A stretch of 64,000 nucleotides of DNA. Origin: a virus. The position numbers and the translations under genes are program-made. The stretch covers positions 11,828-75,827 of IMG/VR virus record IMGVR_UViG_3300030430_004473; one strand, written 5' to 3'. Shown here in pieces: positions 825-63,129 of the stretch; within the stretch, counting starts at the first letter, position 1, and every line of letters begins with the position of its first letter. Under the pieces are notes generated by a model. The model was not told the origin of the DNA and searched no databases. It was given only the letters and a program-made list of their open reading frames with translations.

Positions 825-854
825 AATAAACTCCGTTGTTGTTAGTCATAATTT

Positions 855-1432: not shown

Positions 1433-1490
1433 AATATCCTCCGTTGTAAGTAATAAATAATATGTATTGTTGTATCTTTGCAGACAGCTT

Positions 1491-3687: not shown

Positions 3688-3760
3688 GATTTTTCTCCGT
3701 TGTTGAATGTTAGAATGTCTAGTAATAATATTATAGCATTTTGTATTATATAGTCAAATT

Positions 3761-8437: not shown

Positions 8438-8448
8438 AATTTTCTCCG

Positions 8449-8643
8449 TTATTTGATAATGATATTTTGTTGTTGCTTTTTGGTCATTTTTCCTTTTTTA
8501 TAGGAATTGAATACGATATACATTTCTCTTATCTTTGTGTGCTGACGAGTCCAAGCAGCTTTTTCAGCTTCATTATTTGCCGTCATAGCATACAAGATTT
8601 CTTTTTCTTTTCCAATAAGTACGTTTAAATCCCAAAGTGTCAT
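8449..8643 (-). CDS. small hypothetical protein (start MTLWDL)
   Basis: AACAACGGAGG leader directly before the ATG at 8643. Confidence 0.65.
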   Translation of the reverse strand: MTLWDLNVLIGKEKEILYAMTANNEAEKAAWTRQHTKIREMYIVFNSYKKGKMTKKQQQNIIIK

Positions 8644-8673
8644 GATTACCTCCGTTGTTTGAATCATATAATT

Positions 8674-25433: not shown

Positions 25434-25458
25434 AAGAATGTATTCAACGGAGGTTCTT

Positions 25459-25755: not shown

Positions 25756-25803
25756 TCGCTTTCTATATCATATTATATTAACTAAATAAAAACGGAGTTT
25801 ATT

Positions 25804-26250: not shown

Positions 26251-26291
26251 TATACATTGTCTTATAATAGTATCTAGCAACGGAGCTTAAT

Positions 26292-26804: not shown

Positions 26805-26863
26805 CTACACAAATAATATATATTGTGTTATAATAATTAGGTATTTCAACAACGGAGAAAATT

Positions 26864-28951: not shown

Positions 28952-29010
28952 TAGGATATTACATCAAACTGTGATATAATATATTACACAAGATCAACGG
29001 AGATATCATC

Positions 29011-38361: not shown

Positions 38362-38420
38362 AAAGTTTCACAGAGTAATACGTTTTGTGATATAATGATT
38401 TTACTACAACGGAGGTAAAA

Positions 38421-38732
38421 ATGATTTATATAATCGTCACGACAGACATGCTTGATATGAACATGTATGTCACTTGTTACTCTACCAAAAAAGAGTTTGA
38501 AATACATAAAGCTCTAGCTGAAGAGCTTGAACGCAAAGATCAGCTATATGAAGGTGGTAATGGTTCAATAAGACATGATTTTCACGAAGTACCTTTGCTA
38601 GGTAAGTCTCTAAAAAAGATTGCCCTTTCTATAACAAAAGCTTGTCATGGTGATACGATCAGTGACGTTATTGATCAGATTGATGAACTAGATACAGAGG
38701 AAAATAACAACAACGGAGAAGATAATGACTAG
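38421..38732 (+). CDS. hypothetical protein
   Basis: ACAACGGAGG leader; operator at 38376-38392. Confidence 0.7.
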   Translation: MIYIIVTTDMLDMNMYVTCYSTKKEFEIHKALAEELERKDQLYEGGNGSIRHDFHEVPLLGKSLKKIALSITKACHGDTISDVIDQIDELDTEENNNNGEDND

Positions 38733-39330
38733 AAAATATAGAAAACATATAAATTATAACAAAAAATATATCGTAAATAGACAAGTGTTAAAAGCATTGA
38801 GAAAGAAACACTTTGCAACGCAAACGAAGTTTGTAGAACATGTGAATTCAATCAACAAAGATGATCCTACGAAATCGGATTTTGTTATTTCATTATCTCA
38901 CTACAAGCAAATAGAGAGCAAAGACCAAAAACTCGTCAAAGATACTGTATTAGAAGTATTTGCAAAAGTGTTTGGTTGTACTGTTGAAAATCTTATATAT
39001 TCTGGTCCGGAAGAAAATAAGACATTCGATATAGTAGAGCAAGCTGTTCAAAGTGTTGTAGACACTGAAAATCATATTGTTGGTACTTGGCTAGAAACAC
39101 TGGTTGATAAAGTGCTTCGATTAGAAGAACGTATTGAGAAACAAACGAAGCTGATCGAGAAACAGAATAGCGAAATACAACGATTAAACACAAATATAAA
39201 TATTGTTATGAATCGTGAAAGAACAGCTATGAAGAAGTCTGATGATAAAGAAGTGATATCAATACCGAAAGAAGATATCATTATGTATCTATTGAAAAAT
39301 AACATGATAAACATAACGCATACCTCATAA
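38725..39330 (+). CDS. XRE-like HTH protein with coiled-coil C-terminus
   Basis: LKALRKKH..TQ...ISLSHYKQIES...FAKVFGCTVENL. Confidence 0.7.
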   Translation: MTRKYRKHINYNKKYIVNRQVLKALRKKHFATQTKFVEHVNSINKDDPTKSDFVISLSHYKQIESKDQKLVKDTVLEVFAKVFGCTVENLIYSGPEENKTFDIVEQAVQSVVDTENHIVGTWLETLVDKVLRLEERIEKQTKLIEKQNSEIQRLNTNINIVMNRERTAMKKSDDKEVISIPKEDIIMYLLKNNMINITHTS

Positions 39331-39370
39331 TGTGTTATAATAATTAAGAATCTTAAATACGGAGATAAAA

Positions 39371-39544
39371 ATGAAAAGTCAATCTAAGATAAACCGGCTT
39401 ATGGCATTAGGTCAAGTGTATGACGATAAAGTCAAAAGCAGCTCTTTGTATCCTAGTGGAATACAAAACGCTAGAAGAAAAATATCAGAAGCTGAATATA
39501 AAAAGAAGAAAGCAAAAAGAAAGAACAAAAAGAATAGGAGATAA
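39371..39544 (+). CDS. 57-aa basic microprotein (not in the ORF track)
   Basis: TACGGAG RBS, open frame, Lys/Arg-rich C-terminus. Confidence 0.55.
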   Translation: MKSQSKINRLMALGQVYDDKVKSSSLYPSGIQNARRKISEAEYKKKKAKRKNKKNRR

Positions 39545-41345: not shown

Positions 41346-42045
41346 TTTTAAGAAGCTCATATCAAAAGCGTATTATGATAAAGAAGTATTCAAGCGATTG
41401 AAACAAAATCATAATTTGCAATACAATAAAGTCATAGATAACATTATTACAAAACATTTTGGAGATATGAAAATGAAACCTAGAATATTGAGCAGAGTAG
41501 AGCAGAACGGCTACATGACTTTTGAAAGAGGTCAGTACAATCTAAATATAATCGGTGTCAGATCGATAACGAGAGAAGCTAACAAGTTTGACGATTGGCT
41601 ATATGTCGTTTACAAGGATGAATCTGATGAATGGGTACAGTTGAAATTTCAGATAACAACAGATCCAGGCCTCTATCACTTGCAGAATCCTAGTAGAGTT
41701 GAGGGTACAGCTATTCTGGTTGCCGGTCAATATAGAAGTAGTCATAAGTTAGGGCTTCACAGAGGAAAATACGAAGCTCTTACACAAGTTGGTAAAGTTA
41801 GAGTATATCGTGACAATACCAAAGACCGAGAGTTAGATCTAGAAGCTGAAACGTATCAAAATGGTTATTTTGGAATTAACATTCACCGATCCAATGCTAC
41901 TAGAGAATCAACACAAGTAGATAAATGGTCAGCCGGATGTCAAGTTTTCGCTAACCCAAATGAATATGACATGTTTATATCGTTGTGTAAGAGATCAGCT
42001 GAAAAATGGGGTGATACGTTTACATATACACTATTAGAGGATTGA
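41335..42045 (+). CDS. putative cell-wall enzyme / endolysin with L,D-transpeptidase-like His-Cys motif
   Basis: LNIIGVR, FDD, TTDPG, GQY, GINIH...WSAGCQV. The real start may be 41467 or 41473 (GGAG RBS). Confidence 0.6.
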   Translation: MKPDFKKLISKAYYDKEVFKRLKQNHNLQYNKVIDNIITKHFGDMKMKPRILSRVEQNGYMTFERGQYNLNIIGVRSITREANKFDDWLYVVYKDESDEWVQLKFQITTDPGLYHLQNPSRVEGTAILVAGQYRSSHKLGLHRGKYEALTQVGKVRVYRDNTKDRELDLEAETYQNGYFGINIHRSNATRESTQVDKWSAGCQVFANPNEYDMFISLCKRSAEKWGDTFTYTLLED

Positions 42046-42046
42046 T

Positions 42047-42997
42047 ATGGGTTTGACAAAATTATCAAAAGAGAAATTAAGTAACAATCTTGATTTAGTT
42101 GTATCAGTAAGCGGAGGAAAAGACAGTACAGCTACATGTCTGTATTTGTTAGAAAACGGATATACAACGAATGATTTTGAAAGAGTATTTTTTGATACAG
42201 GCTGGGAATCCAAAGAAACGTATGACTATTTAGATTACTTAGAAACTAAGATCGGAAAGATCACACGATTAAAGAAACATGTCGATATTTCTCAATTTCC
42301 GAAAGAAACGCAACAAATGATTTTAGAAATTGAAAGTGATCTAGGTTTTGAAAGCCCGTTTGTAAGACTATGTTTCTATCATAAGTGTATGCCTAGTAGA
42401 TTTCGCAAGTGGTGTACTAGAAGCTTGAAACTAGAAGTAGTTAAAGATTATTTCGACAATCATGATAATGATGTAATATCTATCATAGGCGTTCGAAGAG
42501 CTGAAAGTAGAGCTAGAGCAAATGTAGAAGAATGGGATTATCATGATCATTTAGATTGTGATGTATGGAGGCCGTTATATCTATGGTCGGAAAAAGACGT
42601 AATTGATATACACAATAAGCATAATATTCTACCGAATAATTTGTATCTACAAGGAAGCTCGAGAGTGGGTTGCTATCCTTGTATTTATGCAAAGAAAAAA
42701 GAAATTTCTATTTTAAGTACAGAACGAATAAAAATAATTGAAAAATTAGAAAAGTATACTGGTATTCATACGAAAAAAACAACAAACACACAATCACAAA
42801 TTGAAAGATTAGAAGAAGTAAAAGAAAAATACGGATATTATTTCAATCAATTTTTTTCAAGAAAAGAACATGATCCTTTTTCTGAAGTTGTTCTTTGGAG
42901 CAAAACAACGCACGGTGGAAAACAATTTAAATTGTTTGATACAGACGAACCATCTTGTAGTAAATGGGGTTTGTGTTCAGTTTGGGAAAATAAATAA
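42047..42997 (+). CDS. PAPS-reductase-family (PP-loop, DndC-like) protein
   Basis: SVSGGKDS, FFDTGWE, RKWCTRSLK, GVRRAESRAR, RVGCYPC. Confidence 0.85.
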   Translation: MGLTKLSKEKLSNNLDLVVSVSGGKDSTATCLYLLENGYTTNDFERVFFDTGWESKETYDYLDYLETKIGKITRLKKHVDISQFPKETQQMILEIESDLGFESPFVRLCFYHKCMPSRFRKWCTRSLKLEVVKDYFDNHDNDVISIIGVRRAESRARANVEEWDYHDHLDCDVWRPLYLWSEKDVIDIHNKHNILPNNLYLQGSSRVGCYPCIYAKKKEISILSTERIKIIEKLEKYTGIHTKKTTNTQSQIERLEEVKEKYGYYFNQFFSRKEHDPFSEVVLWSKTTHGGKQFKLFDTDEPSCSKWGLCSVWENK

Positions 42998-43012
42998 CAA
43001 AAGGAGAGGATA

Positions 43013-43693
43013 ATGTCTACAGACGAATCAAGTCAGAAAAGCAGACATCTACAATTAAATCTTTGCAAGATATTGAACTTAGAAGAAGAAGAAGATTATA
43101 AAAAGATAAAGACAGATAATCTTACTCAGATAGGTTCGTCAGCTCATGCAGATAACGAAAGAGAAAAAAATGACTTCTATGCTACGCCACAATCAGCTGT
43201 AGTTAATTTCTTAAATTGTTATCTATACAGAGATAAAGAAGTGTTAGATAAAAATCTATGGGAATGTTCCTGTGGGGATGGTGCTATATCGAAGATTTTG
43301 GAAAACAACGGATATAATGTTTTTTCATCAGATTTGATAGATAGAGGATATGGAGAACAAAGCGATTTTATGACTTATCAAGAAAATGTTGGAGGTGGCG
43401 ACATAATTACAAACCCACCTTTCAAATTGATTCTTCCTTTCTTAGAACACGCAATCAAATTATTAGAAAATGGAAATAAGTTAATATTCTTAATGCGTCT
43501 ACTTTGTTTAGAAGGAAAGCAAAGAAACGAATTTTTTAAGAAACATCCAATTAAATATGTCTATATTCATACAACGAGAATAGCTTGTACTTTGCCTGAT
43601 GTTCAAACCAAACCAGTTACAGCGATAGCTTATGCTTGGTATGTATGGGAAAAAGGCTATGAGGGTGAAACTGTTATTCGTTGGTTGCCTTAG
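43013..43693 (+). CDS. DNA amino-methyltransferase (NPPF type)
   Basis: DFYATP, WECSCGDGAI, SDLIDRGYG, IITNPPF, YAWYVW. Confidence 0.85.
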   Translation: MSTDESSQKSRHLQLNLCKILNLEEEEDYKKIKTDNLTQIGSSAHADNEREKNDFYATPQSAVVNFLNCYLYRDKEVLDKNLWECSCGDGAISKILENNGYNVFSSDLIDRGYGEQSDFMTYQENVGGGDIITNPPFKLILPFLEHAIKLLENGNKLIFLMRLLCLEGKQRNEFFKKHPIKYVYIHTTRIACTLPDVQTKPVTAIAYAWYVWEKGYEGETVIRWLP

Positions 43694-43705
43694 AGGAATA
43701 GAACA

Positions 43706-44311
43706 ATGATACAATTACACAACAAAGATTGTCTGGAAGCTATGAAGTCAATGAAAACAGATCAATTTGATCTAGCTATTGTAGATCCGCCTTACGGAAT
43801 GCTCGAGGCCGGTATGCAAATGGGTGGAAAAAAAGGATCTTCTTTTCAACGTAAAGAAGTAAACAAATGGGATAAAAAGCCACCGAAAGAATATTTTGAT
43901 GAACTGTTTCGAGTATCAAAGAATCAGATTATCTGGGGTGGTAACTACTTCGGTCTACCACCTACGAGAGAATGTATTTGTTGGGATAAAAAGAATTGTA
44001 TGCCGTCTTTTTCACGTTGGGAAATGGCATGGACCAGCTTCAAAGGTGTGATGAAAATGTATGAACATATAAGTCAAAATCCAAATAGAATACATCCAAC
44101 ACAAAAGCCGGTAGCTCTATATATGTGGCTACTTAATACTTATGCAAAGCAGGGAGATAAGATCCTAGATACGCATATCGGATCTGGCAGTATTGCAATA
44201 GCTTGCCATGAGCTGAAGTATGATCTTGAAGGTTATGAAATAAATAAAAAATACTATCAGAAAACAATGTATAGACTCAAACAACATCAAAGACAATTGA
44301 AATTATTTTAA
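43706..44311 (+). CDS. DNA N6/N4 methyltransferase (beta class)
   Basis: DLAIVDPPY, HPTQKP, LDTHIGSGS. Confidence 0.92.
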   Translation: MIQLHNKDCLEAMKSMKTDQFDLAIVDPPYGMLEAGMQMGGKKGSSFQRKEVNKWDKKPPKEYFDELFRVSKNQIIWGGNYFGLPPTRECICWDKKNCMPSFSRWEMAWTSFKGVMKMYEHISQNPNRIHPTQKPVALYMWLLNTYAKQGDKILDTHIGSGSIAIACHELKYDLEGYEINKKYYQKTMYRLKQHQRQLKLF

Positions 44312-44325
44312 CGGAAATAACGAAC

Positions 44326-44934
44326 ATGATAAACATATACAATGAAGATTGTTTACAAGCTATGAAAAACATGAATGATAATAGTTTTGATCTAGCTATC
44401 GTTGATCCTCCGTTTGGAATTGGAAACTTTGTTCAAACTAGCGGGGCCAAACGTGGATCAAAAGTTGATTGGAATGATAACATTCCGACAGAAGAATATT
44501 TTTCAGAACTGAAAAGAGTATCAAAGAATAGAATCATATTTGGAGCAAATTATTTTAATTGCTTTGAAGAAAAATATGGAGCTATTATTTGGGTAAAAAA
44601 TCAACCCATGCCGGATTTTTCAAAGGCCGTGATTGCTTCATGCACTTTTCACAAAAAGATTGAAATATATGAACAAACATGGACTAACTTTGTAGCTAAA
44701 GGAAGAAGTACAAAACATCCTTGTGAAATGCCTGTTGGAATATACAAATGGATTTTGCGTAACTATGCAAAGCAAGGAGATAAAATATTAGATACTCACT
44801 TAGGCTCTGGTTCAATCGCAATAGCTTGTGATGATATGGGCTATTCGTTGGATGGGTACGAACTAGATACAGGATATTATGAAGAAGCTTGTAAACGATT
44901 GAAACAACATCAAAGACAATTAAAGCTCTTTTAA
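44326..44934 (+). CDS. DNA N6/N4 methyltransferase (beta class), tandem paralog
   Basis: DLAIVDPPF, HPCEMP, LDTHLGSGS. Confidence 0.92.
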   Translation: MINIYNEDCLQAMKNMNDNSFDLAIVDPPFGIGNFVQTSGAKRGSKVDWNDNIPTEEYFSELKRVSKNRIIFGANYFNCFEEKYGAIIWVKNQPMPDFSKAVIASCTFHKKIEIYEQTWTNFVAKGRSTKHPCEMPVGIYKWILRNYAKQGDKILDTHLGSGSIAIACDDMGYSLDGYELDTGYYEEACKRLKQHQRQLKLF

Positions 44935-44970
44935 TTTGCATACTAAATCATTTTGTGTAATACTTAAATT

Positions 44971-45079
44971 GTTCGTTGACAAAAACAGCCAAGCAATTTT
45001 TCTTCTCCGTTGTTAAAGTTTTAAGGAAATTTGCTTTTGAAAGGGTGACTCATTTCGTTGGTTGCCCTTTCTTCTTTTT
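44971..45079 (+). ncRNA. predicted ~110-nt small RNA with anti-leader loop
   Basis: Promoter TTGCAT-17-(TGt)AATACT at 44936-44964. Stem 44991-45004/45023-45036 with loop CTCCGTTGTTAAAGTTTT. Terminator 45039-45079. No ATG in the transcript. Confidence 0.55.
45039..45079 (+). terminator. intrinsic terminator
   Basis: GAAAGGGTGAC/GTTGCCCTTTC 11-bp stem plus TTCTTTTT. Confidence 0.8.
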
Positions 45080-45145
45080 GTCAGAAAGTGACCGACAAAG
45101 ATAACACTCTTCATGTTATGAATAATTAACAAGGAGAATAGAACA

Positions 45146-46447
45146 ATGAACATAACAGAATATCGAACTGTAATGAATAGATATGAAGATAGCGAACGAA
45201 TCAAACAGATAGGCCCAGCTTGGACTTTTACAAATAGCGAATTCGTTGAGCTAGGTTGTAAAAGAAAATGGTCGTATGGTTATTTGATGAATATAGAAAC
45301 AACAGAAAAAGGAGACGCTCTTTTATATGGGATCGTTTGGCATGTAGTAATGGAACATGCATTATTAAGAATGAAGAATACAGATACATGTATAACCAAA
45401 GAAGAAGCTCTGGAACTGATTGAAATCGTAGGAAGAAAGTCTTTTGAAGAAGAACGTGAAGCAATACAAGTAATCGAAGAAGCTAAAGAAGAATGGATAG
45501 AAAACTGTTTGGATAGAATGAAAAGAGCTATCGTGGGTTGGTGCGATCATTGGGCTATACTTCATAAAGAATACGAAATCATAGCAATAGAGCAAACTCT
45601 AGCCAGGCCTATACTTCATCCTCAGACCGGTGAAATCTATAGTCCAAAGACATATATAATAGAAGAAGATGATTGTTTATATCCAGCTGGTATCAACAAA
45701 GAACGATCCAATTTGATTGATGTATGTATACCATACTGGAAAGTAGGAAAAGCTGACGCTATACTTCTCAAACGTGGAACAAAATCGCTTTATATACTAG
45801 ATCATAAGACAACATCACAACCTACTTCATACGAACGAAAGTTTTTATTTGATATGCAGTTATCTGGCTACTGTTCTCTACTTGATTACGAAATCAAACA
45901 TGGAGATATGACGTATTTATCAAAATATGAAGTCAAAGGTGTCATTTGGGATCTATGTCATAGCAAAGTGCCAAAACCACCGGAACCGTTAAAGTCCGGC
46001 AAACTATCAACAGCTAAGGCCAAACTTGTTCCGAGTTGGATCTATGAAGAATCTATTATCAAATATGAATTAGATCGAAGTGATTATGAAGAACATTTGG
46101 AAATGCTAAAGACCAAAGCAGATCCGAACTACTTCTGTTTTTTGATTACATCAATTAATGAAAATGACATGACACGATCTGTATTAGAAGATTATAGTAC
46201 AGCTTGCTCTATGCATGAACTGAAAACAAAACTTATCAATGCTGATAATATGACATTCCAATATACAGCTTCTAGGTATCCTATATGTCAACAATATCTC
46301 AGCTGTAAATATAGCTATTTATGTCAACCGAATGTAGCAATCGAAGATATAAATGAAACAATAAAGCACAAAATATATTGGAAAAAGATTGAAAATAATA
46401 CAGATTATGATATAATTAACTCAGACCAATTAGGTCTACCTTTCTAA
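45146..46447 (+). CDS. PD-(D/E)XK (Cas4/RecB-like) exonuclease
   Basis: CKRKWSY, GIVWH, GKADAI, ILDHKT, QLSGY, C-terminal C..C.Y..LC. Confidence 0.85.
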   Translation: MNITEYRTVMNRYEDSERIKQIGPAWTFTNSEFVELGCKRKWSYGYLMNIETTEKGDALLYGIVWHVVMEHALLRMKNTDTCITKEEALELIEIVGRKSFEEEREAIQVIEEAKEEWIENCLDRMKRAIVGWCDHWAILHKEYEIIAIEQTLARPILHPQTGEIYSPKTYIIEEDDCLYPAGINKERSNLIDVCIPYWKVGKADAILLKRGTKSLYILDHKTTSQPTSYERKFLFDMQLSGYCSLLDYEIKHGDMTYLSKYEVKGVIWDLCHSKVPKPPEPLKSGKLSTAKAKLVPSWIYEESIIKYELDRSDYEEHLEMLKTKADPNYFCFLITSINENDMTRSVLEDYSTACSMHELKTKLINADNMTFQYTASRYPICQQYLSCKYSYLCQPNVAIEDINETIKHKIYWKKIENNTDYDIINSDQLGLPF

Positions 46448-46463
46448 TTCAACGGAGAAAAAT

Positions 46464-47180
46464 ATGTCTTTTAAGATAGAAAAAGCTTCCAAAGCTTCAA
46501 GTAATGCACCGATCAAGGCTTTGATATACGGTGATTCTGGTGCAGGAAAAACAACCCTAGCAGTTACAGGGCCTGGACCGGTTCTAGTACTATTAACCGA
46601 ACGTCAAGCGATTACATCAATCAACGCCTCCAATCCTGAGGCTGATATTATTTATGTCAATACAGCTCAAGATGTAAGAAACGTGATAGGAGCTTTGCGA
46701 AATGGTGATAAATCACTAGCAAAATATAAAACATTAGTAGTCGATTCTTTGACAGAAACACAACGATTAATTCAAGACGATATACTGAAAAAGGCTAGAA
46801 GAGATAGTATGCAATTGCAAGATTACGGAAAACTCGCAGACGCAACGAAAGGACTCATCAGAACACTGAGAGATCTACCTATCAACGTCATTTGTACCGC
46901 TCTTATGGAACACGATAACGAAGAAGCTACTGGAAAACGTCATTATAGTCCTATCTTTATCGGTAAGAAAACCGGTCGTGAAATCGCTCAATGGTTCACG
47001 ATAATAGGTTACTTGTATCGTAGGGATGTAAAAGAAGAAAACGAACGTGTTTCTCAAAGATACGTTATGTTTGATGGCCCTTCTACAGTACTTTGCAAAA
47101 TCGCAAATCCGTTAGAAGGTATCATTAAAGATCCAAAAATGGATAATATCATTCAATCAATTCAACAATACAAAGGATAA
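46464..47180 (+). CDS. AAA_24 / Sak4-like ATPase (recombinase)
   Basis: LIYGDSGAGKTT Walker A, LVVDSLT Walker B, QDYG. Confidence 0.85.
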   Translation: MSFKIEKASKASSNAPIKALIYGDSGAGKTTLAVTGPGPVLVLLTERQAITSINASNPEADIIYVNTAQDVRNVIGALRNGDKSLAKYKTLVVDSLTETQRLIQDDILKKARRDSMQLQDYGKLADATKGLIRTLRDLPINVICTALMEHDNEEATGKRHYSPIFIGKKTGREIAQWFTIIGYLYRRDVKEENERVSQRYVMFDGPSTVLCKIANPLEGIIKDPKMDNIIQSIQQYKG

Positions 47181-47189
47181 GGAGAAATC

Positions 47190-47816
47190 ATGCCAAAAAT
47201 AAATCCTTCTGATCATCAATCATCCAATAATGATCGGAGATCAACAGAACCAATGAAAGCAGGAAAGAAGATACTAGCACCAGCTTCGGCCTCTTTTCGA
47301 TACACAATGAATCAAGAACGATATTGCGAAATATTTTATGTTTGTTTGCACGATCTTGATAATAAAGAAAACGGTGATGTAGGTAAAACGATAAGTCAAC
47401 GATATCTATTAAGAGAATCGCATAACTGGAGATGGGCCGAACTAGCTGCCGTTTTAATGTATAGTGATGTATTCGATAATGAAGATCCCAAAGATGTTCA
47501 AGCTCTTCTCTTAAAGAATGGCAATCGTATCAAAGTAGATCTAGTAGATGATGAATATAACGGAAAGAAAAGACTACAAATGAGAAACTTATCAAAAGTA
47601 CTGAAAGACGGAAAAGTACCGGAATACACTGATAGCGAAGTCAAACATGTATCAGAAGCTGAAAGCAACTATGCAAAAGTCAATGAATACAGAATTGAAC
47701 AAGGCTGGACTACTGAAATACTTCCAAAATATCAAAAGAGTACATCAAATGAACCAGATGAAAATGATGATTGGGATATTCCTGATGATGATGATAATAA
47801 CGATATCCCCTTTTAA
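47190..47816 (+). CDS. single-stranded DNA-binding protein (DUF669-like)
   Basis: Follows the Sak4-like gene; EYNGK; acidic tail DDDDNNDIPF. Confidence 0.75.
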   Translation: MPKINPSDHQSSNNDRRSTEPMKAGKKILAPASASFRYTMNQERYCEIFYVCLHDLDNKENGDVGKTISQRYLLRESHNWRWAELAAVLMYSDVFDNEDPKDVQALLLKNGNRIKVDLVDDEYNGKKRLQMRNLSKVLKDGKVPEYTDSEVKHVSEAESNYAKVNEYRIEQGWTTEILPKYQKSTSNEPDENDDWDIPDDDDNNDIPF

Positions 47817-47829
47817 GGAATAAAGAAGA

Positions 47830-48402
47830 ATGATTGTTGTAGGTATAGATCCAGCTAGTAATGGAGCTGCTACGATATTGAAAGATAAAGTAGCACAAGT
47901 CGTATTTGAATGGAAATGTAGAAATAGGAAAGCAGGCCGTGTCTATGTTCTATCTATATCTACATACGGTTCTGATGAAAAAACGGTCATAGATTGTAAA
48001 TGTGGAGCTGATATAGGAGCACAAATAGGTGCGTATGTACTATTACTGAAAGAAGAAGATGAACTTTTTTATCTATGCAGTGAAGACGCCTATGTCGGTT
48101 CTAACAATCGAACAGCTATTATCGTATCTCGGTTTGCTGGGATGATAGCCGGATCTGTTCACAACTACACCAGATCATTGAATAGAGTTATGTGGGTACA
48201 ACCAAACAAATGGCGAAAAGAATTAATTTCGGTCCCATACTTCACAAAAAGAGAAGTAGTAAAAAAATACTCGCTTGAATACGTTCCAAAGAAAGTACCT
48301 ACTGTAGATCATCATTTGGCAGTACTCGGAATACACGATCATATCACTGATTCGGCTGGCGTAGCTATGTGGGCTTGGAATGAAATAAACAAAGAACAAT
48401 AA
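47830..48402 (+). CDS. RuvC-like Holliday junction resolvase
   Basis: VVGIDP, SED, P.KW.K, HDHITDS.GVA. Confidence 0.8.
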   Translation: MIVVGIDPASNGAATILKDKVAQVVFEWKCRNRKAGRVYVLSISTYGSDEKTVIDCKCGADIGAQIGAYVLLLKEEDELFYLCSEDAYVGSNNRTAIIVSRFAGMIAGSVHNYTRSLNRVMWVQPNKWRKELISVPYFTKREVVKKYSLEYVPKKVPTVDHHLAVLGIHDHITDSAGVAMWAWNEINKEQ

Positions 48403-48431: not shown

Positions 48432-48920
48432 ATGCAAGATCACGAATTTGTATTCAATGAATACAACAAGTATCGAAAACATATAAAGAAAAACAAGTCT
48501 GTCATATCAAACGCAAAGATTAAGAAAATCAAAGCAATATTAAAACAGACAACAAAAGACGATCTCATACTTCTATTTGAATATCTATCAAATAGCGAAG
48601 ATGATTATGTAAAGTTTATCAATGGTGATAATGAAGCTCAACGATTCTACGGAACACTTGATAATCTTTTCAGAAAATCAAAGATCAAAGAAAAAATCAG
48701 TAGAGCTAAGAAATGGAAATCTCTACAAAACAAAAATATTCCTACTCAAGATCTATTCATGCCTTTTATGTTGCTAGAAAAATCAGAAGTAGATAAATAT
48801 TATCAAAACGAATTCAACGAATACGAAGAATCAAGTGAAGAAGAAGAGCCCAACATAACACTCTCAAATCTTCAAATGTCTATCTTTGCTCAACAATCAA
48901 AGGACAACGAACAAAAATGA
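48432..48920 (+). CDS. putative replication-initiation/loader protein
   Basis: Directly upstream of the primase-helicase; F..G.N....Y.TLDNLFR resembles phage replisome-organiser C-termini. Confidence 0.45.
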   Translation: MQDHEFVFNEYNKYRKHIKKNKSVISNAKIKKIKAILKQTTKDDLILLFEYLSNSEDDYVKFINGDNEAQRFYGTLDNLFRKSKIKEKISRAKKWKSLQNKNIPTQDLFMPFMLLEKSEVDKYYQNEFNEYEESSEEEEPNITLSNLQMSIFAQQSKDNEQK

Positions 48921-50854
48921 AATGGTATGAACAAATCAACGAATCAGGAATCCATTCAGTAGCTTCAGCACTCGGCCTAACGATCAGAAAAAATATGATT
49001 ACACCATGCCCAGCTTGTGGAGCTGAAAAAAGAGGAACAAACGACAAACGACCTCCAATTGGTTTCATTAAGAACCTCAAAGGCTGGACTTGTCACAAAT
49101 GCAAAGCAACCGGCAATATTATCGATCTCATAGCATATACACTTCAAGATAAACGATACAGAGAACTACCTAAAGAAGATCGTAAAAAAGTAATGAACTG
49201 GGCTGAAGAAAACAAACTTTATATCAATCAACAAGCTGAAACATTCAAGAAAATAATCAGTACTTACAACCTCACCGATCAACAAGTACCCACAAACAAC
49301 ACACCCGAAGAATCAAATAGCCCTTTCAAATGGGAAAAAGATATACATCTTAAATATCATAACAATCTTTATGATATGCCCTTTGGCCTTCACGTTATTG
49401 AATACTTATACGATTATAGAAAGATCAAAGATAACGTCATACGAAAATTTCAACTCGGAGCTATGCTTGACCAATTTGATAATATTTGGATCGTCATACC
49501 ACTACGAAACAAAGAAGGTGAAGTTATAAATCTCAAATTCCGATCACTTCCCAAACAGGATGAAAAAAAGAAAATACGACACTGTAGCGGTCGACCTATG
49601 ACTCTATTTAATATAGATAACCTTGATCATCATTATGATACCAATATAATCATTACTGAAGGGGAATTTGATGTACTAGCATATCTATCAGCTAACCCAA
49701 ATGTAAACGTCTGTTCTGGTACTACGGGGGCCAAATCCAACTGGCCTGATGATTGGCTAGACGCTATCGAACCCTTTGAAAATATCTATATCAATTATGA
49801 TGATGATGAAACCGGTAAAGAAGGAGCTGATAAACTTTCATCAAAACTCGGAAAAGAAAGATGTTACAAAATGAAATGCGATACATACAACGACTTCAAT
49901 GAATACATTATGAATAATGAGGAAACGAAATGGCTTGATGATATTCAAAAGTTTATAAACAAAGCTGTATCCTTTCAAGAACATATTGCTCTCAAAACCG
50001 TAAGCGACTATCTTGATGAACTCGAAGATCTTATATCAAATCCTCAACAACTCAGAGGACTCAAAACTTCATCCGCTAGAATAGATTCATGTGCCGGTGG
50101 CATAGGGGCCGGCTTATGGGTTATCACCGGTGACACAGGACACGGTAAAACAACATGGGCCACCTTTGAATGTTGGTATCAAGCTCAACAAGGCGTTCCT
50201 ATCATGCTAACCTCTTTCGAACAATCTCCAATCGGAACATGTCAAAAACTTCTCAGGTGCCAACTCGGGCAGGACTTCACAAAAGTATCTAAAGAACAAC
50301 GAAGAACAGCTATGAACCAACTCGGAGCTATGCCTCTTTATATCCTCGATCAATATGGAAACGCTCTACTACAAGATATCATATCCTCTATTAAATACGC
50401 TCAAAGAAGATACAACATCAAAATAGCACTTATCGATCATCTAGGTTTTCTCATAAATACAGACCAAAACACTGATGAACGCAGAGAAATAGAAGCTGCT
50501 GTTAGAGAACTCGCCACCATAGCTATCGCTTCTCAACTAACTATATTCCTCATATGTCACCCTAATAACCTTTCAAACGTGCAACAACGCAGAGTTAAAA
50601 TATCTGACCTCAAAGGTGCTTCAGCAATAAAACAAGACGCTCACGTTGGGGTAGTAGTACAACGTCAACCTATAACAACAGAAAGACCATACCCAACAAC
50701 TACTCTATTCTTTGATAAAGTTAGATCCGAATTCGGGCAAGCAGGCTCCCACTGTACTCTAGCTTTCGATCCCATAGCATGTGTTTATAAAGATGAATGG
50801 GTATCCACACCAGCTGCTCAAAGAGGGGCCAAAATAATCGTACCAAATAAATAA
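48917..50854 (+). CDS. primase-helicase (T7 gp4/Twinkle-like)
   Basis: Zn finger CPAC...CHKC, TOPRIM ITEGEFD and YDDDETG, Walker A GDTGHGKT, IDHL, LKGASAIKQ. Confidence 0.92.
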   Translation: MKWYEQINESGIHSVASALGLTIRKNMITPCPACGAEKRGTNDKRPPIGFIKNLKGWTCHKCKATGNIIDLIAYTLQDKRYRELPKEDRKKVMNWAEENKLYINQQAETFKKIISTYNLTDQQVPTNNTPEESNSPFKWEKDIHLKYHNNLYDMPFGLHVIEYLYDYRKIKDNVIRKFQLGAMLDQFDNIWIVIPLRNKEGEVINLKFRSLPKQDEKKKIRHCSGRPMTLFNIDNLDHHYDTNIIITEGEFDVLAYLSANPNVNVCSGTTGAKSNWPDDWLDAIEPFENIYINYDDDETGKEGADKLSSKLGKERCYKMKCDTYNDFNEYIMNNEETKWLDDIQKFINKAVSFQEHIALKTVSDYLDELEDLISNPQQLRGLKTSSARIDSCAGGIGAGLWVITGDTGHGKTTWATFECWYQAQQGVPIMLTSFEQSPIGTCQKLLRCQLGQDFTKVSKEQRRTAMNQLGAMPLYILDQYGNALLQDIISSIKYAQRRYNIKIALIDHLGFLINTDQNTDERREIEAAVRELATIAIASQLTIFLICHPNNLSNVQQRRVKISDLKGASAIKQDAHVGVVVQRQPITTERPYPTTTLFFDKVRSEFGQAGSHCTLAFDPIACVYKDEWVSTPAAQRGAKIIVPNK

Positions 50855-55122: not shown

Positions 55123-55281
55123 ATGACAATCACAATCGAAATCATAAACGAAACAACGATAATCAGAACACTAGGCATGACATTCTATTTAGTAGATGGT
55201 CAAGTGGTAGATTCACTAGATGAAGAAACTAGAGACCTAGAATGGAATAGTTTGGAAGAATTCATAGAGTCTTGGAAATAA
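55123..55281 (+). CDS. 52-aa acidic microprotein
   Basis: GACGGAG RBS; open frame. Confidence 0.6.
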   Translation: MTITIEIINETTIIRTLGMTFYLVDGQVVDSLDEETRDLEWNSLEEFIESWK

Positions 55282-55306
55282 TCAAAATAAACAATAAGGA
55301 GCTGAC

Positions 55307-55477
55307 ATGCTTAATATCAATACAATCAACAATACAACTACAATAACCTTCACCGGAAAGCTTCAACGTGTAGCAGCTGCGAAGTACTTCCAAAAGCTTC
55401 TCGGATTAAATCTATCTCAAGCTCTCTTGAAAGTTCAGGAACTTAGAAACAATGGATATATTATCATAGTCCTATAA
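55307..55477 (+). CDS. 56-aa microprotein with weak L7/L12-CTD-like motif
   Basis: AAGGAG RBS; RVAAAKYFQKLLGLNLSQALLKVQ. Confidence 0.55.
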   Translation: MLNINTINNTTTITFTGKLQRVAAAKYFQKLLGLNLSQALLKVQELRNNGYIIIVL

Positions 55478-55576
55478 AAAAATATAAAATAAATTAAATA
55501 AAAGTGATACTTTTATTTGCAAGTAATAATACAAAATGCTATATAATAGTATCACTTCAACACAACGGAGAAAATT

Positions 55577-55735
55577 ATGTTTGGTATCGGAGATAGAGTT
55601 TTTCATCAAACCTTAGGCTATGGTGTTATTAAATGGGAAGTGTCCTGTTTAAATGACTGGTACACAGTTAAATTTGATAGCGGAATAGAGCGAAATATAA
55701 AAGGCACTCGATTGCTTCATCTTTGGGAGGTGTAA
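55577..55735 (+). CDS. 52-aa stand-alone PcrA/UvrD-CTD-like Tudor domain
   Basis: MFGIGDRVFHQTLGYGVI...YTVKFDSGIERNI; ACAACGGAG leader. Confidence 0.6.
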   Translation: MFGIGDRVFHQTLGYGVIKWEVSCLNDWYTVKFDSGIERNIKGTRLLHLWEV

Positions 55736-55736
55736 A

Positions 55737-55940
55737 ATGTATTTACTTTCAATAACTGTATCAGGACAGGACACAGAATTTTATCTATTCAATACTGAGT
55801 CAGCAGCTAGGCTATATCTAGCTGGTATCCTAAAAGAATCAGCAGCTGAATACAAGATCTTGTATCTAAACGATCAGCATATAAATAACTATAACCATGT
55901 TCGAGAAAATAATGTATACGGCATTGATATCCAAACTTGA
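55737..55940 (+). CDS. hypothetical protein
   Basis: GGAGG RBS. Confidence 0.6.
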   Translation: MYLLSITVSGQDTEFYLFNTESAARLYLAGILKESAAEYKILYLNDQHINNYNHVRENNVYGIDIQT

Positions 55941-56216
55941 TATTCAAGAGGCCGGCTTCGGCCTGGATGAAGCTTCTATAACCAAATATGGGGAGCTTCA
56001 TCTATTTCCAGATAAACGAGGATCTTTATATTGGAAAGATTCCGGTACACAAATAACATTTGTTTTCATACTGCTACCAAAGGAGCTAACATGAATCCAC
56101 TATCATCCAGAAGGTACACAGAACTAGCTGATAAAGCGTCTTATGTTATGACGTTGCTAGCTCGATACCTAGAACTCAAAATAGAACAACTAGAACAGAA
56201 TAAAGGAGATAAATAA

Positions 56217-56825
56217 ATGAATATTATACCAATTGAAACACTGAAACAAATGATAGAAGAAGCTTCAGATATCGATCAACTGTTAGAAGTAGATAAGATC
56301 GTCAAAGATCAAAAGAACTTCTATAGAAGAACCTATATGAAAAACATGAGTAAGCTCAATGATATATGGCAGAATTTAGGTCATACGTTGATTGATCCAT
56401 CTACTAGACAGATATCAAATGACTTCTGTTTGAGTACCGTAGAACAGTATTTTAAGCAGATTCCAGCTACATTAAAGAATGACGTTGATGATATTGAAAA
56501 GATACAGCTGCAGCTTGAACACTTATTGAAAAGAATAACAGATCGATATGGTGAAATGAGAAGAAATAACTTTACACAACAGATCATAGAAGAAGATCAA
56601 GTATTCTATAACGAGATAAAAGACTATTCAGTTAATGAATTAGAAACACTGAAAGAACAGATTGAAATAAAGATGGTTGTACTACTTGAAGAAAAACAGC
56701 TCATTGAAAAGAATCATAGAAAGATGAATATAGAAGATGAAATAAGAAGTTACAACTTATTGATCAACAAATTAGATCTTCGTATCCGAATCATTGATCA
56801 TATTACAGAAAAAAGAAGTGCATAA
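56217..56825 (+). CDS. coiled-coil hypothetical protein
   Basis: AAGGAG RBS, 202 aa. Confidence 0.75.
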   Translation: MNIIPIETLKQMIEEASDIDQLLEVDKIVKDQKNFYRRTYMKNMSKLNDIWQNLGHTLIDPSTRQISNDFCLSTVEQYFKQIPATLKNDVDDIEKIQLQLEHLLKRITDRYGEMRRNNFTQQIIEEDQVFYNEIKDYSVNELETLKEQIEIKMVVLLEEKQLIEKNHRKMNIEDEIRSYNLLINKLDLRIRIIDHITEKRSA

Positions 56826-56939
56826 TCTATCATTGTGTGTTATTCTGTAGAAACTTAATCATTATTTTTTTAATTCGGAGCTAATCGCTCCCTTAACTAG
56901 AATCAAAAAATATAGATTGTTTTTATTTATTTTCGTATG

Positions 56940-56975
56940 AAGTAGGATCTTGTGGATAGATCCTACTTTTTTTTT
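56940..56975 (+). terminator. intrinsic terminator
   Basis: AAGTAGGATCT/AGATCCTACTT perfect stem plus a T run. Confidence 0.85.
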
Positions 56976-57048
56976 GGGCCAGGCCGTTCGGATATAACGA
57001 CATACAATATTTTTTTTGAAATAAATATAAAAAAAGTTTATTATTTGC

Positions 57049-57077
57049 TTGACATAATACGTTCTGTGTTATAAGAT
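57049..57077 (+). promoter_or_regulatory. strong sigma70 promoter with operator
   Basis: TTGACA-TAATACGTTCTGTGTTA-TAAGAT. Confidence 0.85.
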
Positions 57078-57130
57078 TACTATATAAGCAATCAACAACA
57101 ACTTTAAACTTAAAAAATCGGAGATTAAAA

Positions 57131-57313
57131 ATGTCTTACATCACTATCGACACCGCTAACAACCTTGTAACCTTTGATATCATTGGTTCAGCTGATGACT
57201 TCACCTTTTTGGATGTAGTTAAGACCATAAAGTTCGCAGGTTTCGGCCTTGCCGTAGCTGTCCCAGCAGCTCGAATCTTGGTAGCTTCTGGTTCTATCAC
57301 AATCGCTAAATAA
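57131..57313 (+). CDS. small early-type protein
   Basis: TCGGAG RBS; followed by a GC hairpin. Confidence 0.7.
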   Translation: MSYITIDTANNLVTFDIIGSADDFTFLDVVKTIKFAGFGLAVAVPAARILVASGSITIAK

Positions 57314-57357
57314 TCAACTAACAAGGGGCCACGGCCCCTATTACAACGGAGATAAAA

Positions 57358-57642: not shown

Positions 57643-57921
57643 GAATACAAAAAGCATTATTATGCTAAGCTCACCACATCACAAAAAAACGACCTCCTTC
57701 TTTGGAGGTTGTTCTAGTTTTGTATGAAAAAATTGTATCAGCTGAAAAAAAAGATCACGATCTCGATCTTTTTCGATCAGCAACCAGGCCGTTATATCCG
57801 CAGTGCAAAATATTTATTGAAAAAAAATGAAATTATTTTGAAAAAAAACACTTTGAACTATTTACATCTAACGTAATATGTATTAGAATATATATATAAG
57901 CAATCAACAACGGAGATTCAA

Positions 57922-58769: not shown

Positions 58770-58851
58770 AAGAAACCTGAAATTAATTAAAAAAAACTTG
58801 ACGATCTATAATACAAAATGATATAAGTACTTATAACCAACGGAGAAAAAA

Positions 58852-60296: not shown

Positions 60297-60469
60297 AAAA
60301 ATAAATTTATTTTGAAAAAAGTAGATCGTCTATATTGTTGTATATGACGGCCTATTTTCGTATTGCCAAAAATAAATATGAAAATAATACAGCAATTCGT
60401 ATAAATAACACTTGCATATTACACAGAATGTATTAAGATATATATATAACAACAACAACGGAGAATGTT

Positions 60470-60604: not shown

Positions 60605-60662
60605 TAGGTACTTCAATAAAGCCAAAATAATACATAATACTTTAATATAAACGGAGAAAATT

Positions 60663-62018: not shown

Positions 62019-62179
62019 ATATTGATTTATTTTGATTTTTTTTCAGTATTTTCGAGGCCGTCTATAGCGATATAATATAGTATGTCTTAAATATTTTTTG
62101 AAATAAATACATTTTTTCTTGCAATTATCAGAATACTCTATATACTAATAATATAACAACGAACCAACGGAGAAAAGTT

Positions 62180-63033: not shown

Positions 63034-63129
63034 AAAAAAGAAACAATTTAAAAAAAAATAAAAAAGATTACACAATCTGTATTATTTATGATAGAATAGA
63101 TTATAACTAATAAACAACGGAGAAAAGTT

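What the first reader, a model, noticed from the sequence alone, without database searches (positions are those of the whole stretch)
44936..45079. Predicted phage sRNA displaying an anti-leader loop complementary to the RBS of ~20 early-type genes
Seen: the gap between the MTase pair and the exonuclease has a promoter (TTGCAT-17-AATACT with TG extension and an operator-like spacer). It is followed by a 14-bp stem (AAGCAATTTTTCTT 44991-45004 / AAGGAAATTTGCTT 45023-45036, one mismatch) whose loop begins CTCCGTTGTT, then an intrinsic terminator (45039-45079). CTCCGTTGTT is the exact reverse complement of the AACAACGGAG leader. AACGGAG precedes start codons at 25446, 25791, 26279, 26851, 28996, 38408, 38712, 46451, 55564, 57345, 57909, 58839, 60457, 60650, 62166 and 63116 (+) and at 831, 1439, 3695, 8444 and 8650 (-). 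The 45005 copy is the only one I found that does not serve a credible gene. Core tail genes (tube, chaperone, TMP) use AGGAG, which would mismatch the loop. Inference: one trans-acting sRNA, or this structured 3' end of the MTase mRNA, could silence a whole gene class by occluding a phage-specific Shine-Dalgarno variant, acting as an early-to-late translational switch.
Basis: partly seen in the sequence, partly recalled or inferred. Interest (0 to 1): 0.88.

Follow-up and report, generated by a model that had tools for sequence, protein, structure and literature searches.

The report
Phage small RNA with anti-leader loop
A marine phage and its distant relatives carry a roughly 100-base RNA gene whose unchanging hairpin loop is the exact complement of the ribosome-binding leader shared by about twenty of the phage's own small genes, so one RNA could control that whole gene class; expression and regulation are untested.

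Summary
AACGGAG occurs 26 times in the window against 3.5 expected. Twenty-one copies sit 6-8 nt before a start codon. One inverted copy lies in the loop of a 14-position stem, followed by a terminator hairpin.

Related metagenomic phages decide the case. Their neighbouring exonuclease is only 39-52% identical, yet seven distinct sequences from about six lineages, plus a weaker-scoring eighth (L005), keep the same unit: a TG-extended sigma-70-like promoter, a small 5' hairpin, a two-part stem and a terminator.
- The stem sequence differs in each lineage but still pairs: 8 of 10 pairs show double changes and 98.6% of cells are paired.
- The loop start CUCCGUUGUU is invariant in the seven (L005 has UUCCGUUGUU in the loop).
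- The minus-strand micro-ORF and the plus-strand 42-codon ORF are not conserved.

So this is a genuine plus-strand structured RNA gene, absent from Rfam.

Its role as a class-wide anti-leader regulator is inferred.
- Predicted duplexes average -16.7 kcal/mol for ACGGAG-class leaders, -10.7 for AGGAG-class and -6.0 for shuffled loops.
- In the L039/L040 clade, loop flank and leader flank change together.

No RNA data exist, and the host, timing and direction of control are unknown.

Verdict: new variant of a known kind (a base-pairing sRNA). Interest is high. The scan has noted it only on this same genome.

The parts
44936..44964 (+). Sigma-70-like promoter of the small RNA: TTGCAT, 17-nt spacer, TG, one base, AATACT
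   Evidence: Read directly from the sequence. It is weak by consensus and the scanner did not call it. A TG-extended promoter sits 21-37 nt upstream of the hairpin in all 8 members, reaching 11 of 12 plus TG in L039, L040 and L005.
44975..44989 (+). SL1: small, weak 5' hairpin (GUUG / CAGC)
   Evidence: Minimum-energy folds. All relatives have a small 5' hairpin of unrelated sequence.
44991..45036 (+). SL2: two-part stem (6 bp, a U x U internal mismatch, 7 bp) closing an 18-nt loop
   Evidence: Folds. Covariance-model hit of 59.4 bits, but the window is one of model R2's seed rows, so the independent evidence is model R1 (built from L036+L037 only): 27.7 bits, E 0.0014. Covariation: 8 of 10 pairs with double changes. 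Compensatory T45000C / A45027G in L035, L003 and three DNA runs.
45005..45014 (+). Anti-leader CUCCGUUGUU, the exact reverse complement of the AACAACGGAG leader, at the 5' side of the SL2 loop
   Evidence: Invariant in 7 aligned members. Mean probability of being unpaired is 0.84, against 0.44 for the whole RNA.
45040..45079 (+). Intrinsic terminator: 10-11 bp stem with two G-U pairs, then CUUCUUUUU
   Evidence: Folds. T45046C in runs X1 and X2 turns a U-G pair into C-G. Every relative has a terminator of different sequence at this place.
831..840 (-). Leader AACAACGGAG, 6 nt before the ATG of a 150-aa HNH endonuclease gene
1439..1448 (-). Leader TACAACGGAG before a 178-aa ORF
3695..3704 (-). 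Leader AACAACGGAG before a 206-aa ORF
8444..8453 (-). Leader AATAACGGAG before a 62-aa ORF
8650..8659 (-). Leader AACAACGGAG before a 64-aa ORF
25446..25452 (+). Leader AACGGAG before a 98-aa ORF
25788..25797 (+). Leader AAAAACGGAG before a 148-aa ORF
26276..26285 (+). Leader AGCAACGGAG before a 170-aa SprT-like ORF
26848..26857 (+). Leader AACAACGGAG before a 90-aa ORF
28993..29002 (+). Leader ATCAACGGAG before a 69-aa ORF
38405..38414 (+). Leader TACAACGGAG before a 103-aa ORF
38709..38718 (+). Leader AACAACGGAG before a 201-aa ORF
46451..46457 (+). Leader AACGGAG before the 238-aa Sak4-like annealing protein gene. The same leader precedes the homologous gene in L037 and L040.
55561..55570 (+). 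Leader CACAACGGAG before a 52-aa ORF
57342..57351 (+). Leader TACAACGGAG before a 94-aa ORF
57906..57915 (+). Leader AACAACGGAG before a 62-aa ORF
58836..58845 (+). Leader ACCAACGGAG before a 133-aa ORF (TTG start)
60454..60463 (+). Leader AACAACGGAG before a 44-aa ORF
60650..60656 (+). Leader AACGGAG before a 66-aa ORF
62163..62172 (+). Leader ACCAACGGAG before a 164-aa ORF
63113..63122 (+). Leader AACAACGGAG before a 106-aa ORF

Best explanation
Window 44936-45079 is the gene of a free-standing small RNA of about 108 nt, transcribed on the + strand. It runs from its own TG-extended sigma-70-type promoter (start near 44971) to its own intrinsic terminator (end near 45079).

The RNA has three hairpins. 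The middle one (SL2) holds CUCCGUUGUU single-stranded at the 5' side of a large A/U-rich loop.

Inferred mechanism:
- The loop pairs with the 10-nt leader AACAACGGAG, which includes the GGAG Shine-Dalgarno. That leader lies 6 nt before the start codon of about 21-24 mostly promoter-proximal small genes of the phage.
- The duplex of 10-12 bp is much stronger than the 4-5 bp these leaders can form with 16S rRNA. It would therefore block 30S binding and probably expose the short mRNAs to decay.
- Genes with AGGAG-type leaders, including tail and tape-measure genes, pair about 6 kcal/mol less well and would largely escape.
- A single promoter type seems to drive both leader classes, so the RNA would provide class-specific control after transcription. 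Plausibly it is a threshold or timer that shuts down the accessory or early class as the stable RNA accumulates.

Shown in silico: the RNA gene, its structure, the invariant accessible loop, the complementarity and the class difference.

Inferred: expression, pairing in vivo, repression as the direction of control, and timing.
For: 1. Motif statistics. AACGGAG occurs 26 times against 3.5 expected. The 10-mer occurs 29 times against 2.4. Twenty-one copies lie at Shine-Dalgarno spacing before ORFs.
2. Fold. The + strand folds at -28.4 kcal/mol, z -3.24. The - strand gives z -1.07.
3. Same unit in relatives. It occurs next to, or within about 1 kb of, the PD-(D/E)XK exonuclease gene in L035, L036, L037, L038, L039, L040 and L005. 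Their exonuclease identity is 96, 52, 50, 45, 43, 44 and 39%.
4. Covariation. 98.6% of cells pair. Eight of 10 pairs have changes on both sides. The covariation score is 0.886 against 0.03-0.13 for slid controls, and 0 of 500 shuffles reach it. RNAalifold gives the same structure, as does each sequence folded alone.
5. Loop invariance. CUCCGUUGUU is invariant while the stems, SL1 and the terminators all differ.
6. Close relative. Against the 93%-identical relative the intergenic region is about 98% identical, and almost all its differences (4 substitutions, 1 deletion) are pair-preserving changes within SL2, apart from one 1-base indel just before the exonuclease start. Three DNA runs from three studies carry the same changes, plus a U-G to C-G change in the terminator.
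7. Promoter and terminator are present in all 8 members.
8. The anti-leader is predicted unpaired, P 0.45-0.87.
9. Energies. ACGGAG-class start regions average -16.7 kcal/mol (n = 21), AGGAG-class -10.7 (n = 23; Mann-Whitney p = 6e-8) and shuffled loops -6.0 +/- 1.25.
10. Leader use in relatives. L036 has 8, L037 has 3 and L007 has 7.
11. Partial co-variation of loop and leader. L039 and L040 leaders read ACGG(A/G)GC(A/U), and their loops read UUGCUCCGUU. The own-loop duplex is -14.2 / -15.3 kcal/mol, against -10.3 with the window's loop. The window's leaders pair best with the window's own loop.
12. L005 carries two anti-leader copies, one in the loop and one single-stranded before the terminator. 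L007 has CUCCGUUGUC just before a strong terminator.
13. There is a single copy per genome.
Against: - No RNA evidence of any kind. No listed sequencing run on record as RNA holds the region.
- The window's own promoter is weak by consensus.
- In L036 and L037 the flanks of loop and leader do not co-vary.
- In the 21 kb held of L039 no exact AACGGAG leader occurs. Only ACGGGG variants do, and these need a G-U pair.
- Several AGGAG leaders of the form AACAAGGAG, including that of the adjacent exonuclease gene, could still pair with a bulge at -14 kcal/mol. Class discrimination may therefore be graded.
- The A/C-rich leader might be kept for ribosome or S1 reasons unrelated to the RNA.
- The host is unknown, so neither host chaperones nor host use of this leader could be examined.
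- The family has only 7-8 distinct sequences, and the covariation counts were made on a model-fitted alignment.
Confidence: 0.6

Rival explanations
1. Cis-acting leader or attenuator of the downstream recombination and replication operon (exonuclease, Sak4-like protein, primase-helicase). Under this reading the promoter, the conserved hairpin and the terminator form an antitermination or attenuation site. A protein or the ribosome reads the loop, and the terminated about-108-nt RNA is a by-product.
For: - The layout is promoter, conserved hairpin, terminator, then genes in the same direction in the window, L036, L037, L038, L039 and L040.
- The unit sits at the head of the replication module.
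Against: - A separate promoter-like site lies between the terminator and the exonuclease gene in the window and its relatives.
- In L005 the unit is on the opposite strand from the exonuclease gene. In L038 and L007 other genes follow it.
- This reading does not explain why the invariant loop is the exact complement of a 10-nt leader used about 20 times elsewhere.
Confidence: 0.12
2. A real small RNA whose main partner is not the phage leaders. It might act on host mRNAs with similar start regions, or act as a sponge or decoy for a host RNA or protein. The match to the phage leaders would then reflect a shared host-type translation signal.
For: - The same leader occurs in related phages of 35-52% GC. 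This fits a host-imposed signal.
- C-rich loops that pair with Shine-Dalgarno regions are a common sRNA device (general knowledge).
Against: - The C in AACGGAG and the AACAAC part do not improve pairing with the usual 16S 3' end (general knowledge), so a host ribosome preference does not obviously explain them.
- Within one phage only one gene class carries the leader, although the promoters look alike.
- The flank co-variation in L039 and L040 involves phage leaders.
- The host is unknown, so no positive evidence exists.
Confidence: 0.12
3. Only the structured 3' end of the MTase transcript. Under this reading two tandem hairpins serve as a terminator and a block to exonucleases, and the loop resembles an inverted leader by descent or by chance.
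For: - The unit starts 2 nt after the MTase stop codon.
- The stem of SL2 ends in GCUUUUG.
- The window's promoter is weak.
Against: - A 10-nt loop sequence stays invariant while both stem halves are replaced in each of about six lineages. A stabiliser hairpin would not be expected to do this.
- Promoters are present in all members, and strong in L039, L040 and L005.
- The upstream gene differs between members.
- The chance of an 18-nt loop holding a given 10-mer is about 1e-5 (arithmetic).
Confidence: 0.06
4. A minus-strand feature: a degenerate gene start (leader plus TTG plus a 10-codon ORF, MLGCFCQRTI), or a plus-strand 42-codon ORF at 44976-45104.
For: - The leader with a TTG 8 nt downstream exists on the - strand.
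- The ORF listing shows the 42-aa + strand ORF.
Against: - The micro-ORF is absent or different in the relatives. L037 and L040 have none, L039 has 5 codons and L036 has 16.
- No promoter lies upstream on the - strand.
- The - strand fold is not unusual.
- The G-U pairs become A-C mismatches on the - strand.
- The 96% relative has a 1-nt deletion inside the + strand ORF, and lengths differ by 1-3 nt among members.
Confidence: 0.02

Closest known systems
c4 antisense RNA of phages P1 and P7 (the P4 CI RNA and P22 sar RNA are of the same general kind)
   Same: A phage-encoded small RNA whose loop sequences pair with the ribosome-binding region of a phage mRNA and block translation. Function depends on the loops being displayed (review PMC12197685).
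   Different: - c4 acts on a single operon (icd/ant) transcribed from the same promoter, and it is processed from that transcript.
- Here the unit has its own promoter and terminator.
- The complementary site is a leader repeated before about 20 dispersed genes.
- There is no Rfam match to any family.
T4 RegB endoribonuclease and RegA translational repressor
   Same: Functional analogy only. T4 shuts off a class of early mRNAs through a shared feature of their start regions. RegB cuts GGAG Shine-Dalgarno sequences followed by an A-rich stretch, while most middle and all late mRNAs escape (PMC3014915). Here too one gene class shares GGAG followed by an A-rich stretch.
   Different: - Both T4 effectors are proteins. 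Here the class-specific reader would be an RNA.
- Recognition would be by 10-12 bp of base pairing.
- No regB-like or regA-like gene was looked for.
Bacterial sRNAs that use C-rich loops to pair with Shine-Dalgarno regions of many targets (for example RNAIII and RsaE of Staphylococcus aureus)
   Same: A C/U-rich single-stranded loop is complementary to GGAG-type Shine-Dalgarno sequences, there are several targets, and the RNA ends in a Rho-independent terminator (general knowledge).
   Different: - Those seeds are short (UCCC) and their targets are unrelated host genes.
- Here the seed is a 10-mer matching a stereotyped leader that the same small genome repeats.
- The regulator and its whole target set would be phage-encoded.
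Lambda nut / boxB and other antitermination RNA elements
   Same: A promoter-proximal conserved hairpin upstream of a terminator at the head of an operon.
   Different: - boxB is a 5-bp stem with a GNRA-like pentaloop read by N protein (general knowledge).
- Here the loop is 18-20 nt and complementary to mRNA leaders.
- Orientation relative to neighbouring genes is not fixed.

Membership tests
Any described RNA family (Rfam 15, including C4 antisense RNA, sar, DicF and others) | Covariance-model match at or near the gathering score | tested here: not met
   No match reaches the gathering score in the whole window. Nothing relevant appears up to E = 10 in 44000-46000.
Trans-acting base-pairing small RNA (general kind) | Own promoter | tested here: inconclusive
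   All 8 members have a TG-extended sigma-70-like site 21-37 nt upstream of SL2. It is weak in the window and the scanner did not call it. No transcription start data exist.
Trans-acting base-pairing small RNA (general kind) | Rho-independent terminator at the 3' end | tested here: met
   All members have a stable hairpin plus U tract, each of different sequence. A U-G to C-G variant occurs in DNA runs.
Trans-acting base-pairing small RNA (general kind) | Conserved, accessible single-stranded seed | tested here: met
   CUCCGUUGUU is invariant in 7 members. Its mean probability of being unpaired is 0.45-0.87.
Trans-acting base-pairing small RNA (general kind) | Seed complementary to target mRNAs at a functional site | tested here: met
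   Exact or one-mismatch 10-mer complement 6 nt before 21 start codons. Mean duplex energy -16.7 kcal/mol against -6.0 for shuffled loops.
Trans-acting base-pairing small RNA (general kind) | The RNA accumulates and changes target expression | not testable with these tools
   No RNA holder was listed. Only DNA contigs could be laid on the region.
Structured non-coding RNA (evolutionary test) | Compensatory base changes that keep the helices | tested here: met
   8 of 10 pairs have double changes, with 21 such cells against 6.6 in shuffles. Slid controls pair 20-50% of cells against 98.6%. RNAalifold agrees. Caveat: 7 sequences on a model-fitted alignment.
P1/P7 c4-type antisense RNA | Co-transcribed with, and processed from, the operon it represses; two loops matching two sites in that one mRNA | tested here: not met
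   The unit has its own promoter and terminator, and the complementary sites are dispersed over the genome on both strands. There is no Rfam match.
Plain intrinsic terminator | G+C-rich hairpin directly followed by a U run; loop sequence free to vary | tested here: not met
   This holds for the 45040-45079 hairpin, but not for SL2. SL2 is A/U-rich, has an 18-20-nt loop with an invariant 10-mer, and is followed by a second hairpin.
Lambda boxB-type antitermination hairpin | Short stem with a 5-nt GNRA-like loop, with a boxA nearby | tested here: not met
   The loop is 18-20 nt. The orientation relative to the downstream operon is reversed in L005.

The most novel reading that the evidence does not exclude
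A virulent-type marine phage lineage tags one class of its genes with a stereotyped 10-nt leader. It also encodes one small RNA whose invariant loop reads that tag. This gives an RNA-only, class-wide translational off-switch or timer, an RNA counterpart of T4 RegB/RegA. In it the 'address label' on the mRNAs and the regulator co-evolve inside the phage genome.
Probability: 0.5. Interest if true: 0.88.

Novelty: new variant of a known kind. Interest (0 to 1): 0.8.

Why it matters
Temporal control in phages is usually explained by transcription: new sigma factors, phage RNA polymerases and antiterminators. Known post-transcriptional class control, as in T4, uses proteins. The phage sRNAs known so far mostly act on one phage gene or on host genes.

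Here a conserved RNA with an invariant anti-leader loop sits beside about 20 matching leaders. One promoter type seems to serve both leader classes. This suggests that a whole gene class can be governed by one small RNA through a shared leader.

The hypothesis can be tested directly with reporters and compensatory mutations, even without the unknown host. The unit is also a compact natural design for multiplexed translational control. It adds a new structured RNA family from uncultured marine phages.

Tried and rejected
- RNA evidence. No RNA holder was listed for 42000-48000. The one metatranscriptome from a related sample had no contig on the region. Only DNA contigs from three studies could be laid on it.
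The contigs of the 45-57% exonuclease relatives known only from ENA (P0002, P0004, P0006-P0011) could therefore not be fetched.
- IMG/VR pattern scans for GCTCCGTTGTTTAWA (104 stretches) and TTGTCRCTCCGTTGTT (67 stretches) gave no further hairpin members by fold filter or covariance model.
- Genome contigs holds no exonuclease relative, so there is no host or prophage clue. The phage collection has no close relative.
- Rfam gave nothing. There are no tRNA genes.
- The simple promoter/terminator scanner called neither site in the window.
- MAFFT alignments of the hairpins were structurally inconsistent. They were replaced by a model seeded on L036 and L037 and then realigned.
- The minus-strand 10-codon ORF and the plus-strand 42-codon ORF were rejected for lack of conservation and for a frame-breaking indel.
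- A search for leader-like targets of the different small unit in L008 found nothing convincing.
- Flank co-variation between loop and leaders is absent in L036 and L037.
- Four literature searches found no description of a class-wide anti-leader phage sRNA. This covers the held library only.

Full report
**Origin of the window.** The window is bases 11828-75827 of a 75,827-bp IMG/VR virus record. CheckV rates the record 100% complete, and it has 35.6% GC. Related contigs come from TARA and other marine metagenomes. No close relative exists in the cultured-phage collection. No relative was found in bacterial genomes. The host is therefore unknown.

**Local gene context.** Two paralogous DNA methyltransferase genes lie at 43706-44311 and 44326-44934. 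A PD-(D/E)XK exonuclease gene follows at 45146-46447, then a Sak4-like annealing protein gene at 46464-47180, and a primase-helicase gene at 48917-50854.

- AACGGAG occurs 26 times against 3.5 expected. AACAACGGAG with at most one mismatch occurs 29 times against 2.4. No shuffle reaches either count.
- All 21 listed copies precede a start codon, 18 of them at exactly 6 nt.
- Most copies lie 10-16 nt downstream of a TG-extended -10 element of the type TGTGnTATAAT. They are therefore the short 5' leaders of promoter-proximal genes.
- The + strand 44971-45079 folds into a weak 5' hairpin, the 14-position stem with its 18-nt loop, and a terminator hairpin. The energy is -28.4 kcal/mol with z = -3.24. 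The - strand is unremarkable, z = -1.07.
- Corrections: four extra intragenic 7-mer copies serve no gene. The simple scanner called neither the promoter nor the terminator.

**The closest relative.** L003, L004 and L035 carry an exonuclease that is 96% identical at the protein level, with about 93% nucleotide identity in the flanks.
- The intergenic region is about 98% identical.
- Nearly all its differences fall in the stem and keep pairing. T45000C pairs with A45027G, giving U-A to C-G. T45001C gives U-G to C-G. A45028G gives U-A to U-G.
- Contigs from three DNA runs of three studies carry the same four changes. Two of them also carry T45046C, which turns a U-G pair of the terminator into C-G.

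**Distant relatives.** Searches with an alignment of exonuclease homologues brought in relatives at 39-52% protein identity.
- In L036, L037, L039 and L040 the same slot upstream of the exonuclease gene holds the same unit.
- In L038 the unit lies about 1 kb upstream, directly after a methyltransferase-like gene.
- In L005 it lies on the opposite strand.
- The outer stem reads AAGCAA, GCTCAA, GCTTAA, TTGTGT, (T)GCCA or GCGCCA, each with its exact partner. The inner stem reads TTTTCTT, TTCCCT, TGTC, TTCCT or TGC(T), again with partners. An internal mismatch sits at a fixed place.
- The loop always begins (N)CUCCGUUGUU.

**Covariation statistics.** These were made on the model-based alignment of seven distinct sequences.
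- 98.6% of cells pair.
- Eight of ten pairs show changes on both sides.
- The covariation score is 0.886, against 0.03-0.13 when the partners are slid. No shuffle of 500 reaches it.
- RNAalifold predicts the same helix. So does each sequence folded alone.

**Promoters, terminators and copy number.**
- All eight members have a TG-extended sigma-70-like promoter 21-37 nt upstream of the hairpin. It reaches 11 of 12 plus TG in L039, L040 and L005. Each also has a terminator of unrelated sequence.
- The predicted RNAs are 95-137 nt.
- G-U pairs in several stems work only on the + strand.
- The refined model finds one copy per genome. It finds nothing else in about 2.2 Mb of fetched loci.
- Rfam has no such family.
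- I conclude with about 0.9 confidence that this is a real, previously uncatalogued structured RNA gene on the + strand.

**Rejected alternatives for the sequence itself.**
- The minus-strand micro-ORF is not conserved. L037 and L040 have none, L039 has 5 codons and L036 has 16.
- The + strand 42-codon ORF is broken by a 1-nt deletion in the 96% relative.
- A plain tandem terminator does not explain an invariant 10-nt loop above stems that have been completely replaced.

**What the RNA does.** This part is inference.
- The invariant loop is the exact complement of the leader. An 18-nt loop would hold a given 10-mer by chance about once in 1e5.
- The motif is predicted unpaired, 0.84 in the window against 0.44 for the whole RNA.
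- A crude gene call gives 21 genes of the ACGGAG class and 23 of the AGGAG class.
- Predicted duplexes with the loop average -16.7 kcal/mol for the first class, -10.7 for the second, and -6 to -8 for other genes. Shuffled loops give -6.0 +/- 1.25 on the ACGGAG class.
- The ACGGAG genes are mostly small ORFs without a family. They also include an HNH endonuclease, an SprT-like protein and the Sak4-like protein. They cluster at 372-3687 and 8249-8643 (- strand), and at 25459-27136, 38421-39544 and 55123-63450 (+ strand).
- Tail and tape-measure genes use AGGAG.
- The same TGTGTTATAAT-type promoter precedes genes of both classes. A post-transcriptional class discriminator therefore makes sense.

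**Support from relatives.**
- L036, L037 and L007 also use AACGGAG leaders.
- In L039 and L040 the leaders read ACGG(A/G)GC(A/U), and the loops carry the matching 5' extension UUGCUCC. Own-loop duplexes are 4-5 kcal/mol better than with the window's loop. The window's leaders likewise prefer the window's own loop.
- L036 and L037 do not show this flank effect. The co-variation is therefore partial.
- L005 has two anti-leader copies. L007 places CUCCGUUGUC single-stranded just before a strong terminator. This fits selection on display of the motif rather than on one particular hairpin.

**Most likely mechanism.** A kissing contact forms between the loop and the short, unstructured leader. It occludes the Shine-Dalgarno sequence and probably hastens mRNA decay. 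The result is graded, class-specific repression that grows as the stable RNA accumulates.
- Confidence is 0.6 for the anti-leader regulator as a whole.
- Repression rather than activation, and the early-to-late reading, are the least secure steps.

**Rivals.**
- A cis-acting attenuator or antitermination element for the replication operon (0.12).
- An RNA aimed mainly at host partners (0.12).
- A mere 3' end structure of the methyltransferase mRNA (0.06).
- A minus-strand or coding feature (0.02).

**Comparison with what is known.**
- The closest mechanistic relatives are phage antisense RNAs such as c4 of P1/P7, whose loops pair with a ribosome-binding region (PMC12197685). c4 acts on a single operon and is processed from that same transcript.
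- The closest functional analogue is T4 RegB, which inactivates early mRNAs by cutting GGAG Shine-Dalgarno sequences followed by an A-rich stretch (PMC3014915). RegB is a protein.
- Four full-text searches found no description of a phage sRNA addressing a whole gene class through a shared leader.
- I class the finding as a new variant of a known kind.

**Limits.**
- There are no expression data.
- The host is unknown.
- The family has only seven or eight distinct members.

Noticed in passing
L041/L006 (about 9790-9900 of L006), L042 1-90, L043 5880-6010: In more distant relatives (exonuclease 36-40% identical), the same slot upstream of the exonuclease gene holds a different small promoter-to-terminator unit. 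It shares GACCGCC, CCGTC and a single-stranded CTCCTAT. ATAGGAG precedes a few genes there, including the L043 exonuclease gene, but there are too few for statistics.
   Followed up: partly
L008/L046 9735-9905: Another relative (34% identical) has, at this slot, a promoter-like site, a GCCAAG/CTTGGC hairpin with a 26-nt loop containing CUUCCUAGG, and a strong terminator. A duplex scan of the 21 kb held found no leader-like targets.
   Followed up: partly
window 43706-44934; L003 2186-2791; run X2 contig: The two adjacent methyltransferase paralogues share their last roughly 33 nt (88% identical) and the C-terminal QLKLF. The close relative has a different or recombined arrangement, and one DNA contig replaces 44364-44764 with 465 other bases.
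   Followed up: no
whole window, e.g. 4320, 10890, 15550, 16405, 26830, 31145, 38040, 38395: Nearly all recognisable promoters are of one type (TGTGTTATAAT-like extended -10). They precede both ACGGAG-leader and AGGAG-leader genes, including tail genes. No second promoter class was seen.
   Followed up: partly
window 45120-45145: The exonuclease leader TTAACAAGGAGAA could pair with the same loop as 7 + 6 bp around one bulged G (-14.0 kcal/mol). This is the second-best duplex among the AGGAG-class genes.
   Followed up: partly
L005 minus strand 237-100: This member carries two anti-leader motifs: UUCCGUUGUU in the loop, and CUCCGUUGUU single-stranded between the hairpin and the terminator. Its phage uses AACAATGGAG leaders, which would pair through a G-U.
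   Followed up: partly
IMG/VR loci L170-L234: 67 viral contigs contain TTGTCRCTCCGTTGTT, many from one group of samples. None has the hairpin by the covariance model. What this recurrent 16-mer is there was not examined.
   Followed up: no
window 57300-57345: A G+C-rich palindrome (GGGGCCACGGCCCC) lies directly upstream of the ACGGAG leader at 57345. It looks like a terminator abutting the next gene's leader.
   Followed up: no
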